A stretch of DNA of 43,469 nt from Escherichia phage vB_EcoM-689R6. The DNA lies in sequence record ON470584; one strand, written 5' to 3'. Positions 37,404-40,991 of this stretch are shown here, in pieces (the stretch's first letter is position 1; every line of letters starts with the position of its first letter). The position numbers and the translations under genes are program-made. Below the pieces are notes generated by a model that saw only the letters and a program-made list of their open reading frames with translations, was not told the DNA's origin and did no database searches.

Positions 37404-38654
37404 TTACATGTTCTTGATGATCGCATCACCAAACTCTGAACATTTCAGCAGCTTAGCGCCTTCCATCAGACGTTCGAAGTCATAGGTTACGGTCTTGGCG
37501 TTGATTGCGCCTTCCATACCTTTAACAATCAGGTCTGCGGCTTCAGTCCAGCCCATATGGCGCAGCATCATCTCAGCGGAGAGAATAATAGAGCCTGGGT
37601 TTACTTTGTCCTGACCGGCATATTTCGGCGCAGTACCGTGGGTGGCTTCAAACAGGGCGCATTCGTCACCGATGTTTGCGCCTGGGGCGATACCGATACC
37701 GCCGACCTGTGCAGCCAGAGCGTCAGAAATGTAGTCACCGTTCAGGTTCATACAGGCGATAACATCATATTCAGCCGGACGCAGCAGGATCTGTTGCAGG
37801 AATGCGTCAGCAATCACGTCTTTAATGACGATCTCTTTGCCGGTATTCGGGTTTTTAACTTTCATCCACGGGCCGCCGTCGATCAGTTCACCGCCAAACT
37901 CTTCACGCGCCAGCTGGTAGCCCCAGTCTTTAAACGCGCCTTCGGTGAACTTCATGATGTTGCCTTTGTGCACCAGGGTCACAGAGTCACGATCGTTAGC
38001 AATTGCGTATTCGATCGCTGCACGAACCAGACGTTTGGTGCCTTCTTCCGAACACGGCTTAATACCGATACCGCAATGTTCCGGGAAGCGAATTTTCTTC
38101 ACGCCCATCTCTTCACGCAGGAATTTAATCACTTTCTCGGCGTCGGCAGAGTCAGCTTTCCATTCGATACCCGCATAAATGTCTTCCGAGTTTTCACGGA
38201 AGATAACCATATCGGTCAGTTCAGGATGTTTAACCGGGCTTGGGGTGCCCTGATAGTAACGTACCGGACGCAGGCAGATGTAGAGATCCAGTTCCTGGCG
38301 CAGGGCAACGTTCAGAGAACGAATACCGCCACCAACCGGAGTGGTCAGAGGGCCTTTAATGGCAACGCGATATTCACGAATCAGATCAAGGGTTTCAGCA
38401 GGCAGCCAGACATCCTGACCATAAACCTGTGTGGATTTTTCACCGGTGTAAATTTCCATCCAGGAGATTTTACGCTCGCCTTTATAGGCTTTCTCGACTG
38501 CAGCGTCGACCACTTTCAGCATGGCTGGGGTTACATCTACACCGATTCCATCACCTTCAATGTAAGGGATAATCGGATTTTCAGGAACGTTGAGTTTGCC
38601 GTTTTGCAGGGTGATCTTCTTGCCTTGTGCCGGAACAACTACTTTACTTTCCAT
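37404..38654 (-). CDS. icd: Isocitrate dehydrogenase (NADP)
   Basis: 416 aa, [46 protein letters not shown]... through ...[10 protein letters not shown]; full length. Confidence 0.95.
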
Positions 38655-38825
38655 TCACCTCTCCTTCGAGCGCTACTGGTTTGCTCGTCTGCCACCACGT
38701 TGCATATGCGTTTGCGTCCTGCGATACGGATGCATTAGAGCAATTTTTTGTTAATGATTTGTAATTGGCTTGTCAATACTACCCTATTGTTTGCCGTCAT
38801 GAAAGATGCGCGTTATTAGGCTATA

Positions 38826-38966
38826 ATGCGGCAATTCATAATCTCTGAAAATACCATGCAAAAAACTTCTTTTAGACCAAAGACAGTATTTTTCAGACCT
38901 TCAAATAAGGCATTAAATATCAATAAGTTACACCAGTTTTTAAGCAATAAAAAAAACCACCAGAGA
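38826..38966 (+). pseudogene. Displaced 5' fragment of rluE
   Basis: Short ORF MRQFIISENTMQKTSFRPKT... matches the rluE N-terminus as I recall it and shares ACCATG...CTTCTTTTAGA with the start region of the intact rluE at 40350..40384, then diverges. Confidence 0.4.
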
Positions 38967-39235
38967 TAACTAACAGGATGCTATTTGGTCAAAATTTGAC
39001 ATTACTCGACTCAGCGACTATCTCACTTTGAGCACTATTGGGAAAATTATCAAAAGTCATGGTTGAAGCGACAAGCAACGAGTAAATTATGGCATCCCCC
39101 CTTTTTGAGGTTCACATGAAACGCTTTGCACTGATAGCTGTGAAACTCGTTGCCTTTACTGGTTCTGCATCTGCTGCAACCGAAGAAATCAACTTCAAGT
39201 AACAGAAACACTATATAACAATGGAGTGTTGACAA

Positions 39236-39685
39236 ATGGATACTACCGAAGAACGCAATGGAACATATTTCTACAGAGGACACCCGAACCTGTCCAAAAT
39301 AGAACTACTCAACGTCATATTCCTTGAAGAATTCTGTAAGGAATTGGGGATTGATTCGGTATCAGGTGCAGCAATCTTATCTGGTCAACCGTGGCTGGGT
39401 ACAAGAGCGAAGCCGCAAGGGGCAACCCTGGGAACAAGTGTTGTCTCAAAGTATGCGCGTATACTGATGAGAGATGCACGCATGCCTTTTGGTATTTCTG
39501 TTCATACACCAGTGGGTGTAAGGATGCAGAAATCTAATAAGCTTGCTGCAATTATCGCTCGTTGGGTCCCGTGGATTGGTTGGGCTTCACTGTCGATGAG
39601 TCTTTACAGGGTTTCGACTCGTACCCAGGAAAAATACAATCTGATTGCCAAACCTCAAGACCGTATTAAGTGGACTTCCTTCTAA
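39236..39685 (+). CDS. Hypothetical protein with C-terminal hydrophobic helix
   Basis: 149 aa ORF with ribosome-binding site; C-terminal AAIIARWVPWIGWASLSMSLY is TM-like; lies in inserted DNA between icd and rluE. Confidence 0.45.
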   Translation: MDTTEERNGTYFYRGHPNLSKIELLNVIFLEEFCKELGIDSVSGAAILSGQPWLGTRAKPQGATLGTSVVSKYARILMRDARMPFGISVHTPVGVRMQKSNKLAAIIARWVPWIGWASLSMSLYRVSTRTQEKYNLIAKPQDRIKWTSF

Positions 39686-40020
39686 TGGCGACAACAATCA
39701 CAGACGAAGTTTTAGCACTGTTCCGTGATGAGATTCCAGGTTATCAGGATGACCACGGGAAGGAAATTCCGTTAGAACTGGACTCTGATTTGTTCGACTA
39801 TCCACGAGATGATTTAGAGGACGCTATACGGAAATACAAAGAGAGGTTTGGGATTAACCTGGATAATCTGGACTGGTCTTTGTACCTTCCATGGGAGTCT
39901 GCACCATTGCTTCAACGATGGTTCAAGCTCAAGCGGGAAGAGGTAGAAACAACACGTTTACCGTTAACTGTACGGATGTTTGCAGAATCAGCAGAAGCGG
40001 GAAAATGGCTGTATCAGTAG
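39685..40020 (+). CDS. Hypothetical small acidic protein
   Basis: 111 aa from ATG 39685, which overlaps the upstream stop (TAATG). Acidic, with an LELDSDLFDY segment. The ORF track starts at a GTG at 39670. Confidence 0.45.
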   Translation: MATTITDEVLALFRDEIPGYQDDHGKEIPLELDSDLFDYPRDDLEDAIRKYKERFGINLDNLDWSLYLPWESAPLLQRWFKLKREEVETTRLPLTVRMFAESAEAGKWLYQ

Positions 40021-40352
40021 AATAAAAAAGAAGGCTGCGATGCCCCTCTTATTACTGCTGATGATGGTAGTGGTAAAGCATCATCCTGAACTTGAACAGT
40101 GAAGTGCTGTCACCCATCAGTAATACAGAAACACTATTTTTCATACCAGTATTTATTCAATTCATCAATGTAAAATGTGTTCATTGGGCCATATTTATCA
40201 CCATGCAGCCACACAACCGCTGCTCACTAACCCAGGTATTGATGAAACCGCGCTGAAGAGCCTGAACCCTGAACCTCTAACGAGTACCTTAAAAGTCCAA
40301 TGCAATCCGACACTGTGCTACCCTCTGCGTATAGCTCTATTTGGAATTTACC

Positions 40353-40991
40353 ATGAAATACTTTAGCGATTCTAAATCTTCTTTTAGAAAAAAACAGGTT
40401 AGTCGACTAAACTCGCAACACTCCACTAAGCGTAAACCTGAAAACCAGCCCACGCGCGTGATCCTGTTCAATAAACCCTACGATGTTCTTCCGCAGTTCA
40501 CCGATGAAGCCGGACGCAAAACATTAAAAGAATTCATCCCGGTTCAGGGCGTTTATGCAGCAGGTCGTCTTGACCGCGATAGCGAAGGGTTACTGGTGCT
40601 GACCAATAACGGCGCGTTGCAGGCGCGTTTAACCCAGCCGGGTAAACGCACCGGAAAAATCTATTATGTGCAGGTGGAAGGTATTCCCACACAAGACGCA
40701 CTTGAAGCCTTGCGCAATGGCGTAACCTTAAATGATGGCCCTACCCTGCCCGCAGGCGTAGAGCTGGTTGACGAACCCGCGTGGTTATGGCCGCGGAATC
40801 CACCAATTCGTGAACGCAAAAGTATTCCCACCAGCTGGCTGAAGATCACCTTATATGAAGGACGTAATCGCCAGGTGCGCCGCATGACCGCCCATGTTGG
40901 TTTCCCCACGCTGCGACTGATTCGCTATGCGATGGGTGATTACTCTTTGGATAATCTTGCCAACGGCGAATGGCGAGAAGCGACAGATTAA
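40353..40991 (+). CDS. rluE: 23S rRNA pseudouridine synthase RluE
   Basis: Conserved body ...[60 protein letters not shown]...; N-terminus differs from the fragment at 38826. Start codon uncertain (ATG 40353 or TTG 40341). Confidence 0.8.

What the first reader, a model, noticed from the sequence alone, without database searches (positions are those of the whole stretch)
38826..40384. A 1.5 kb insertion in the 5' end of rluE with a duplicated gene start and a two-gene cargo
A short ORF at 38826 and the intact rluE start region at 40350..40384 share ACCATG ... CTTCTTTTAGA and similar following codons. That implies about 1.5 kb of DNA was inserted into the 5' end of rluE, supplying a replacement N-terminus. 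The insert carries a 149-aa protein with a C-terminal TM helix coupled to a 111-aa acidic protein, which is reminiscent of toxin-immunity or toxin-antitoxin pairs. It also has a signal-peptide-like mini-ORF (39116..39202) and a 20-aa hydrophobic peptide ORF (40040..40102). My recollection is that icd and rluE are directly adjacent in K-12.
Basis: partly seen in the sequence, partly recalled or inferred. Interest (0 to 1): 0.6.

Follow-up and report, generated by a model that had tools for sequence, protein, structure and literature searches.

The report
Orphan toxin–immunity islet inside rluE
About 7% of E. coli carry 1.5 kb of foreign DNA in the start of the rRNA-modification gene rluE; it brings a replacement gene start and an uncharacterised toxin–immunity gene pair that other bacteria attach to type VI secretion (Hcp) or Rhs toxin-delivery genes.

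Summary
375 genomes (7%) and this window carry a net +1,512 bp. Homology to the empty site stops at 38876 (…CTTCTTTTAGA) and resumes at the same 11-mer at 40378. The next 39 nt (40391-40429) are a diverged rluE copy, strictly linked to the insert. So foreign DNA runs from 38877 to about 40429 and supplies a new RluE N-terminus (212 aa instead of 217).

The cargo is one STM2901-family (Pfam DUF8209) gene translationally coupled to a DUF1493 gene. In 63 loci from other Enterobacterales the pair is always together. An hcp gene lies next to it in 45 of them. In distant bacteria the DUF8209 domain sits at the C-terminus of Rhs-core proteins, and DUF1493 is the next gene in 6 of 9 cases examined. 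The pair is therefore a polymorphic-toxin/immunity module, here an orphan with no hcp.

The two mini-ORFs and the "TM helix" are not supported. The donor of the flanks and of the rluE start was not found. No paper mentions DUF8209, and none found assigns a function to STM2901 or DUF1493. Toxicity, secretion and protection are inferred, not shown.

The parts
38655..38825 (+). Native icd-rluE intergenic region, with a sigma70-like site (38799-38827, ATGAAA-17-TATAAT) upstream of the displaced rluE start.
   Evidence: 99.6% identical to empty-site genomes; promoter-like site (a consensus match only).
38826..38876 (+). Displaced remnant of the native rluE 5' end (MRQFIISENTMQKTSFR). It now reads on into foreign DNA as a 47-aa ORF ending at 38969.
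   Evidence: Alignment to the empty site ends exactly at 38876. The junction AGA|CCAAAG is identical in 5 diverse carriers. Not annotated in RefSeq.
38877..39235 (+). Left flank of the insert. Origin unknown, GC 37%, and the most variable part among carriers. It contains the signal-peptide-like mini-ORF 39116-39202.
   Evidence: Found only in the 375 carrier genomes, once each, at 93-100% identity. No similarity to 63 related loci. The mini-ORF has 6-nt indels and a frameshift among carriers.
39236..39685 (+). 149-aa STM2901-family / DUF8209 protein, pI 10.0: the putative toxin (stand-alone polymorphic-toxin domain).
   Evidence: NF045926 at 156 bits; PF26636 = DUF8209. hcp-linked in relatives. 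C-terminal to the Rhs core in distant homologues. dN/dS 0.05-0.10 against other genera.
39685..40020 (+). 111-aa DUF1493 protein, pI 4.5, with an acyl-carrier-protein-like fold: the putative cognate immunity protein. Its start overlaps the toxin stop (TAATG).
40021..40352 (+). Right flank of the insert. Origin unknown, GC 42%. It contains the 20-aa mini-ORF 40040-40102 and must carry, or pass on, transcription into rluE.
   Evidence: Found only in the 375 carriers, at >=99% identity in 365. No Rfam hit. No unusual RNA fold. No + strand terminator.
40353..40429 (+). Foreign, diverged rluE 5' end ([26 protein letters not shown]…), which replaces the native N-terminus.
   Evidence: 13 of 45 nt differ from the native allele between 40389 and 40433, then 1 in about 180. 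The variant is strictly linked to the insert: 377 records at >=95% identity against 5,051 at 80-90%.
40430..40991 (+). E. coli-type body of rluE, with the catalytic core intact. Together with 40353-40429 it encodes the 212-aa RluE.
   Evidence: NF008487 RluE equivalog at 470 bits; 195/205 identical to the native RluE.
38866..38876 (+). Left copy of the 11-nt repeat CTTCTTTTAGA (right copy at 40378-40388).
   Evidence: It is the conserved K-(T/S)-S-F-R codon block of two homologous rluE starts.
40378..40388 (+). Right copy of the 11-nt repeat CTTCTTTTAGA.

Best explanation
This is a small horizontally acquired islet, net +1,512 bp. It sits in the first codons of rluE in a minority of Escherichia.

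Cargo. The islet carries one polymorphic-toxin/immunity module. The toxin is a stand-alone DUF8209 (STM2901-family) domain of 149 aa and pI 10. The next gene is translationally coupled to it and encodes an acidic, ACP-fold DUF1493 protein. I read that protein as the cognate immunity protein, neutralising the toxin by direct binding in the cytoplasm.

Delivery context in other bacteria. In other Enterobacterales the same pair usually lies directly behind an orphan hcp gene, as cargo of the type VI secretion tube. In distant bacteria the toxin domain is fused behind an Rhs core. The E. coli copy has lost, or never had, its hcp, so it is an orphan pair.

Likely role (inferred). The immunity gene protects against type VI attack by neighbours that fire this toxin family. 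The toxin gene makes the pair self-stabilising, and it could be fired if a compatible Hcp exists elsewhere in the genome.

Expression (inferred). The insert lies downstream of the native rluE promoter region and has no + strand terminator. The pair and rluE are therefore probably co-transcribed from the housekeeping promoter.

Effect on rluE. The gene stays functional because the foreign DNA ends in a diverged rluE 5' end that is joined in frame to the resident gene.

Route of acquisition (inferred). A single event imported DNA from an unidentified relative in which the pair lay upstream of rluE. One crossover fell inside rluE, near 40430. One illegitimate joint fell at 38876/38877 inside the resident rluE start. 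The islet then spread among Escherichia lineages by homologous recombination of its flanks.
For: Shown, for the insertion:
- It is present in 375 of 5,426 genomes, at one place each.
- The junctions are defined by alignment to the empty site.
- The left junction is identical in five diverse carriers, including Escherichia sp. E1V33.
- The variant rluE segment is strictly linked to the insert.
- GC is 43% against 50-53% in the flanking genes.
- None of 63 loci with the pair in other genera has icd or rluE nearby.
- In E1V33 the rluE body is 9% diverged, but the insert is 1.6-4.5% and the icd side 0.4% diverged.

Shown, for the cargo:
- NF045926 and PF07377 hits.
- The pair is adjacent in all 63 loci.
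- hcp (PF05638) lies under 60 nt upstream in 34 loci and within 1.5 kb downstream in 11.
- 42 other E. coli genomes carry an hcp'-'DUF1493 deletion remnant.
- The profile search finds the domain at the extreme C-terminus of long proteins.
- 6 of 10 long proteins tested have the RHS repeat-associated core (TIGR03696) upstream of it, and their sequences show the Rhs-core-end motif just before the domain.
- DUF1493 is the next gene in 6 of 9 such loci.
- dN/dS against other genera is 0.04-0.14 for both genes.
- 374 of 375 carriers are >=99% identical over the cargo, against 246 of 375 for the left flank.
- RluE scores 470 bits on its equivalog model.
Against: - No hcp or hcp remnant was found in the 43-kb window. 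Whether the host has a T6SS was not tested.
- The toxin's activity is unknown. The AF2 model is poor (pLDDT 61) and has no meaningful fold match. The residues invariant across the family (G50, T67, S68, S71, R109, P112) do not point to a known catalytic type.
- Three of nine Rhs-type homologues have a downstream gene that is not detectably DUF1493.
- Within Escherichia the toxin gene shows dN/dS 0.77. That rests on only 7 substitutions, so the E. coli copy could be drifting.
- The donor of the flanks and of the variant rluE start was not found, so the acquisition route is inference.
- The promoter and read-through model rests only on consensus scans.
Confidence: 0.72

Rival explanations
1. The pair is an intracellular toxin-antitoxin (addiction or abortive-infection) module. 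It has no role in secretion and simply stabilises itself or defends against phage.
For: There is no hcp at this locus, and 17 of 63 related loci also lack hcp. Distant homologues sit among prophage tail-fibre genes in IMG/VR contigs. The toxin/antidote gene coupling is TA-like.
Against: hcp is adjacent in 45 of 62 informative loci. The domain is an Rhs C-terminal domain elsewhere. There are no PADLOC or Pfam TA hits. The downstream protein has an ACP-like fold with no DNA-binding domain. This reading is not exclusive: an orphan effector-immunity pair can also behave as an addiction module.
Confidence: 0.12
2. The 1.5 kb is ancestral to Escherichia and was deleted in most E. coli. It is not an insertion.
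For: The left flank differs by up to 7% among carriers, so the allele is old. It is also present in a second Escherichia species.
Against: A truncated native rluE start lies to the left of the insert. A deletion between the 11-mers would give a hybrid allele (native start plus variant segment), and none of 5,426 genomes shows one. GC is low. No other genus has the pair next to icd or rluE. In E1V33 the insert is far less diverged than the adjacent rluE body.
Confidence: 0.04
3. An integrase-driven mobile element inserted site-specifically at an att core CTTCTTTTAGA, carrying a spare gene start as e14 does for the icd 3' end. What remains is a decayed remnant.
For: An 11-nt direct repeat lies at both ends. 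A gene-end replacement is typical of integrative elements that target coding sequence (established knowledge of e14/icd). This window has such a prophage at the other end of icd.
Against: The insert has no recombinase gene or remnant. The sequence just right of the second repeat is not the native one, which a crossover at that core would require. The same site carries no other cargo in 5,426 genomes. There are no matches in phage or true plasmid collections. The repeat is expected anyway, because both copies are homologous rluE starts.
Confidence: 0.08
4. DUF1493 is not an immunity protein. It is a chaperone or adaptor, or an ACP-like cofactor, needed for stability, loading or activation of the toxin.
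For: It has an ACP-like fold. The toxin is poorly structured on its own in the model. The protein is cytosolic and acidic, whereas the toxin has hydrophobic conserved segments.
Against: It occupies the immediately downstream, often overlapping, position that immunity genes hold behind Rhs C-terminal domains. No third conserved gene that could be the immunity gene accompanies the pair. The ACP Ser position is not conserved.
Confidence: 0.1

Closest known systems
Hcp-linked small T6SS effector-immunity modules of Enterobacteriaceae, e.g. Ssp6-Sip6 of Serratia marcescens (PMC6889166)
   Same: Both have a small stand-alone effector gene with an overlapping downstream antidote gene. Both are scattered across Enterobacteriaceae, sometimes next to orphan hcp genes and sometimes alone. 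Silent orphan copies exist in both (compared).
   Different: Sip6 is a 204-bp ORF (about 67 aa) with two TM helices and localises to the membrane. DUF1493 is a 111-aa soluble acidic ACP-fold protein. Ssp6 is experimentally a pore former, whereas DUF8209 has no known activity. Sequence relatedness to Ssp6 could not be tested.
Rhs polymorphic toxins with C-terminal toxin domains, and orphan C-terminal-domain/immunity cassettes
   Same: The DUF8209 domain occupies the position after the Rhs core in distant homologues, with DUF1493 encoded next. Orphan toxin/immunity copies away from the delivery gene are typical of such systems.
   Different: The E. coli protein has no Rhs, PAAR or other trafficking domain. 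It starts with a conserved MDTTEExNGTYFY N-terminus specific to the stand-alone enterobacterial forms.
Gene-end replacement by integrated DNA, e.g. prophage e14 at the icd 3' end (own knowledge; the same kind of prophage occupies icd in this window)
   Same: Foreign DNA interrupts a housekeeping gene but carries a diverged copy of the interrupted end. The gene stays intact, and a displaced native fragment remains.
   Different: Here the 5' end is replaced and there is no integrase. The displaced native fragment is only 51 nt, and the breakpoints do not fit a single att-core crossover.
Orphan immunity genes that protect non-producers from T6SS or CDI attack (own knowledge of the concept)
   Same: An immunity gene is kept in genomes that lack the linked delivery gene.
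   Different: Here the toxin gene is retained intact as well, and protection has not been shown.

Membership tests
T6SS Hcp-cargo effector-immunity pair | The effector gene is genetically linked to hcp at this locus. | tested here: not met
   tblastn of 46 Hcp proteins against the whole window finds nothing (best E 0.12). The left flank has no hcp remnant.
T6SS Hcp-cargo effector-immunity pair | The family as a whole is linked to hcp. | tested here: met
   hcp (PF05638, E 1e-21 to 1e-34) lies directly upstream in 34 and within 1.5 kb downstream in 11 of 63 loci. There is also an hcp'-'DUF1493 remnant in 42 E. coli genomes.
T6SS Hcp-cargo effector-immunity pair | The effector is small enough to ride inside the Hcp ring (roughly under 20 kDa; established knowledge). 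| tested here: met
   149 aa.
T6SS Hcp-cargo effector-immunity pair | T6SS-dependent secretion, Hcp binding, and a T6SS in the host genome. | not tested
   Secretion and binding need experiments. The presence of a T6SS in the carrier genomes was not examined.
Polymorphic toxin system (Rhs-type C-terminal toxin plus immunity) | The domain occurs as the extreme C-terminal module after the Rhs core. | tested here: met
   6 of 10 long homologues carry TIGR03696 upstream of the domain. Their sequences show the Rhs-core-end motif followed by the domain.
Polymorphic toxin system (Rhs-type C-terminal toxin plus immunity) | A specific small gene immediately downstream co-varies with the toxin domain across delivery contexts. 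| tested here: met
   DUF1493 is the next gene in 6 of 9 distant loci and in all 63 enterobacterial loci. It was not detected in 3 loci.
Polymorphic toxin system (Rhs-type C-terminal toxin plus immunity) | An N-terminal trafficking domain on this protein. | tested here: not met
   The protein is a 149-aa stand-alone domain. Pfam finds only a sub-threshold KELAA hit.
Polymorphic toxin system (Rhs-type C-terminal toxin plus immunity) | Toxicity of the domain and its neutralisation by the downstream protein. | not testable with these tools
   Needs expression experiments.
Type II toxin-antitoxin system | An antitoxin with a DNA-binding domain, or membership of a known TA or defence family. | tested here: not met
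   The DUF1493 model is an ACP-like helical bundle. There are no Pfam TA families and no PADLOC hit.
Integrase-mediated genomic island with att duplication | A recombinase gene, and flanking repeats with native sequence outside both of them. | tested here: not met
   The insert has no recombinase ORF. The sequence right of the second repeat is the diverged allele, not the native one.
Acyl carrier protein (for the 111-aa protein) | A four-helix ACP fold. | tested here: met
Acyl carrier protein (for the 111-aa protein) | A conserved phosphopantetheine-attachment Ser (DSL) at the start of helix II. | tested here: not met
   Helix II (residues 41-55 in the model) starts (G/R)-D-D-L. The only nearby Ser (S34) is replaced by Y, T, F or D in 11 of 53 homologues.
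Ssp6/Sip6 family | An immunity protein of about 67 aa with two TM helices. | tested here: not met
   DUF1493 is 111 aa with GRAVY -0.60 and pI 4.5. Sip6 is described in PMC6889166.
RluE (23S rRNA pseudouridine 2457 synthase), for the rescued gene | A full-length match to the equivalog model above its cut-off. | tested here: met
   NF008487 at 469.6 bits against a cut-off of 284, covering residues 8-212.

The most novel reading that the evidence does not exclude
DUF8209 (the STM2901 family) is a so far unstudied toxin domain that bacteria deliver in two ways: as Hcp cargo in Enterobacterales and as an Rhs C-terminal domain elsewhere. Its dedicated immunity protein is an acyl-carrier-protein mimic. 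That would suggest the toxin acts on ACP or an ACP-dependent step, with immunity working by target mimicry. In 7% of E. coli an intact orphan pair is wired behind the rluE promoter, where it would give standing immunity against type VI attack by gut Enterobacter, Citrobacter and Klebsiella.
Probability: 0.15. Interest if true: 0.65.

Novelty: new member of a known kind. Interest (0 to 1): 0.42.

Why it matters
For E. coli genomics, this is a clean and old presence/absence polymorphism next to a core gene. It changes the N-terminus of RluE in 7% of strains and places foreign genes under what is probably a housekeeping promoter.

For type VI secretion and polymorphic-toxin biology, the comparative data link two domains of unknown function into one testable toxin-immunity family. 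DUF8209/STM2901 would be the toxin and DUF1493 the immunity protein. The family is widespread in Enterobacterales, including the STM2901 locus beside SPI-1 in Salmonella. No experimental work on it was found in the searchable literature.

If the pair is active, carriers would differ from other E. coli in resistance to, or use of, contact-dependent killing in the gut.

Tried and rejected
1. Donor of the variant rluE start.
   - A protein search with the 45-aa N-terminus gave only E. coli fragments.
   - A metagenome scan kept 80 loci. All carried either the identical variant or native E. coli alleles, with no intermediates.
   - The first attempt at that scan failed because the query was too short.
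2. Origin of the flanks 38877-39235 and 40021-40352.
   - They gave no hits outside the 375 carriers in E. coli genomes.
   - Phages gave none. The only plasmid-collection hits were one E. coli record matching the insert's first 785 nt and three records matching only the cargo genes; two of those three are very large records, probably chromosomal.
   - tblastx and blastn-short against 80 related loci gave none.
3. An hcp remnant in the left flank: none found.
4. RNA elements: Rfam gave nothing. Folds of both flanks are no better than shuffles (z -0.64 and +0.27).
6. Defence-system models: no PADLOC hit.
7. Literature: DUF1493, STM2901 and STM2902 appear only in gene lists, and DUF8209 appears in no paper.
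8. The motif ACAGAAACACTAT (39202, 40125) and its weak third copy at the left junction were considered as recombination sites. An exact 13-mer pair is near chance expectation in a region this size. A related ATAGATACACTAT lies about 45 nt upstream of hcp in five loci, where it looks like a -10 region. This is left unexplained.
9. The 20-aa Leu/Val-rich ORF was considered as a leader peptide or type I toxin. It has 12 hydrophobic residues and no terminator-like fold, so this was rejected as unsupported.
Full report
OBSERVATION. icd lies on the minus strand (37404-38654) and rluE on the plus strand (40353-40991), with 1.7 kb between them. A megablast of 38600-40500 against 5,426 complete E. coli genomes matched all of them. 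Only 375 genomes cover 80% or more of the query. The rest match only the two ends, and in them icd and rluE are 171 bp apart.

JUNCTIONS. Alignment to an empty site (L002) shows 276/277 identity up to 38876 (…ACCATGCAAAAAACTTCTTTTAGA). That stretch is the native intergenic region plus the first 17 codons of the annotated native rluE. Homology resumes at 40374, with the same 11-mer at 40378-40388.
- Between 40391 and 40429 the two alleles differ at 13 positions. After that there is one difference in about 180 nt.
- A search with 40389-40480 splits the genomes cleanly: 377 records at 95% identity or more and 5,051 at 80-90%, with nothing in between.
- The foreign DNA therefore runs from 38877 to about 40429. 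It replaces about 41 nt of native rluE and adds a net 1,512 bp.
- The resulting RluE is 212 aa ([27 protein letters not shown]…) instead of 217 aa. It is 195/205 identical to the native protein from residue 8 on and scores 470 bits on the RluE equivalog model.
- The 11-mer repeat alone would not be significant. It is simply the conserved K-(T/S)-S-F-R block of two homologous gene starts.

ONE OLD EVENT. Both non-coding flanks occur only in the same 375 genomes, once each. The left junction AGA|CCAAAG is identical in five diverse carriers, including Escherichia sp. E1V33.
- The left flank is variable: 246 genomes at 99% or more, 104 at 95-99%, 25 at 90-95%, with indels.
- The two genes are at 99% or more in 374 of 375 carriers.
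- In E1V33 the rluE body is 9% diverged from this window. The insert is only 1.6-4.5% diverged and the icd side 0.4%. The islet has therefore moved between Escherichia lineages by recombination of its flanks.
- GC is 43% in the insert against 50-53% in the neighbouring genes.
- None of 63 loci carrying the pair in other genera has icd, rluE, nudJ or mnmA within 6 kb.
- Secondary IS3/group II intron insertions hit the right flank in some carriers.

CARGO.
- The 149-aa protein is an STM2901-family protein (NF045926, 156 bits). Its Pfam family is PF26636, named DUF8209.
- The 111-aa protein is DUF1493 (PF07377, E 1e-29). The two genes overlap in TAATG.
- The proteins have pI 10.0 and 4.5.
- DNA similarity to other genera is confined to 39216-40027, which is the two genes only.

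COMPARATIVE EVIDENCE FOR FUNCTION.
1. In 63 loci from one-genome-per-species Enterobacterales the two genes are always adjacent and in this order.
2. A gene for the type VI tube protein Hcp (PF05638) ends less than 60 nt upstream in 34 loci. It lies within 1.5 kb downstream in 11 more. 17 loci have none. These are three-gene orphan-hcp islets at many different chromosomal sites, several of them next to mutS. In Salmonella, STM2901 lies next to SPI-1.
3. 42 other E. coli genomes hold an hcp'-'DUF1493 deletion remnant on an integrative island.
4. A profile search of 1.84 billion representative proteins found 367 relatives. Many are long proteins with the domain at the very C-terminus. Six of ten long proteins tested carry the RHS repeat-associated core domain upstream of it, and their sequences show the Rhs-core-end motif followed by the domain.
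5. In six of nine such distant loci the next gene, often overlapping, is again DUF1493. In three it is not detectable.
6. Both genes are under purifying selection between genera, with dN/dS 0.04-0.14.
Together these are the signatures of a polymorphic-toxin domain and its cognate immunity protein.

STRUCTURE.
- It lacks a conserved phosphopantetheine Ser. Helix II begins (G/R)DDL, and S34 is variable. It is therefore not a true carrier protein.
- The toxin models poorly (pLDDT 61, with residues 51-99 disordered) and has no meaningful fold or PDB match.
- Family-wide invariant residues are G50, T67, S68, S71, R109 and P112, within the motifs TRxK…GTSxxS and GRxxPxxGW. None suggests a known enzyme class.
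- The hydrophobic segment around residue 112 reaches only 1.24 on the Kyte-Doolittle scale.
- Because the immunity protein is soluble and acidic, I infer that the toxin acts in the cytoplasm or at the inner face of the membrane.

HOW IT LIKELY WORKS HERE (inferred). The islet is an orphan pair with no hcp in the 43-kb window. Most plausibly the immunity gene protects against neighbours that fire this toxin family. The intact toxin gene makes the pair self-stabilising, or usable if a compatible Hcp exists elsewhere; that was not tested. The insert sits downstream of the native rluE promoter-like site (38799-38827) and contains no + strand terminator-like site. The pair and rluE are therefore probably read from one housekeeping promoter.

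HOW IT GOT THERE (inferred). The right end is a homologous crossover inside rluE. The left end is an illegitimate joint within the resident rluE start. This fits import of DNA from a relative in which the pair already lay upstream of rluE.
- An integrase/att model is disfavoured. There is no recombinase. The sequence right of the second repeat is not the native one. The site carries no other cargo in 5,426 genomes. There are no phage hits, and no hits on true plasmids.
- An ancestral-region/deletion model is disfavoured by the displaced native gene start, the absence of hybrid alleles and the low GC.
- The donor was not found.

MINOR FEATURES.
- The signal-peptide-like mini-ORF (39116-39202) carries 6-nt indels among carriers and is frameshifted in E1V33. 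It is probably a gene remnant.
- The 20-aa ORF (40040-40102) has no support.

COMPARISON WITH KNOWN SYSTEMS AND NOVELTY. The closest described systems are Hcp-linked small effector/immunity pairs such as Ssp6-Sip6, and Rhs C-terminal toxin/immunity cassettes. Sip6 is a roughly 67-aa protein with two TM helices, which is unlike DUF1493. No paper in the library mentions DUF8209, and none assigns a function to DUF1493 or STM2901. The islet is thus a new member of a known kind, namely an orphan polymorphic-toxin/immunity module. It has an unusual landing site that rewrites the start of a housekeeping gene. Toxicity, neutralisation and secretion remain to be shown.

Noticed in passing
window 1-37300: A complete tailed prophage (terminase, portal, capsid, sheath/tube tail, lysis genes, intE/xisE at 34111-35467) is integrated at the 3' end of icd. 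Between the integrase and icd lie a DUF262 gene (35567-36619) and a 216-aa hypothetical gene (36628-37278) at GC 31-37%. This looks like a defence-type cargo pair at the prophage end.
   Followed up: partly
window 39202-39214 and 40125-40137 (weak third copy at 38878-38899): An exact 13-mer ACAGAAACACTAT lies 22 nt upstream of the toxin gene and again about 105 nt after the immunity gene. A 22-nt, 82% match to the second copy sits right at the left junction. A related ATAGATACACTAT lies about 45 nt upstream of hcp in five related loci. It could be a promoter -10 region or a recombination scar; this is unresolved.
   Followed up: partly
window 38877-38960: Among carriers the first ~90 nt after the left junction are far more variable than the cargo genes (2-5% against 0-0.9%). 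This suggests either relaxed constraint or a mutational hot spot just behind the displaced rluE start.
   Followed up: partly
window 40124-40132; L003 7527-11050; L164 from 3122: In about 10 carriers the right flank is interrupted by an IS3-family element, which in L003 itself carries a group II intron (ltrA). The window matches on either side overlap by 9 nt. In these strains rluE sits about 3.5 kb further from the cargo.
   Followed up: partly
L167 8789-9111 (E. coli E16 and 41 other genomes): A partial hcp is fused directly to a partial DUF1493 gene, with the toxin gene deleted. It sits on an integrative/mobilisable island next to a His-Xaa-Ser (hxsABCD) radical-SAM cluster.
   Followed up: partly
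L078 8001-8785 (IMG/VR contig) and 12 similar viral contigs: Homologues of the toxin-immunity pair (36-47% identical to the toxin) occur without an adjacent hcp in 13 of 14 IMG/VR contigs; one has an hcp-like gene about 2.4 kb away. In L078 the pair sits between prophage tail-fibre genes and a tail-fibre assembly gene, as a moron-like insert.
   Followed up: partly
window 39235-39273 compared with L047-L059: The first 39 nt of the toxin gene (MDTTEExNGTYFY) stay 84-90% identical at the DNA level in loci whose proteins are only 38-43% identical overall. The N-terminus is specific to the stand-alone enterobacterial forms, so it could be an Hcp-recognition or translation signal.
   Followed up: no
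H4, E. coli STO_Bone1B (NZ_CP054169.1): An empty-site genome has an IS1 inserted between icd and rluE, so this short intergenic region tolerates other insertions.
   Followed up: no
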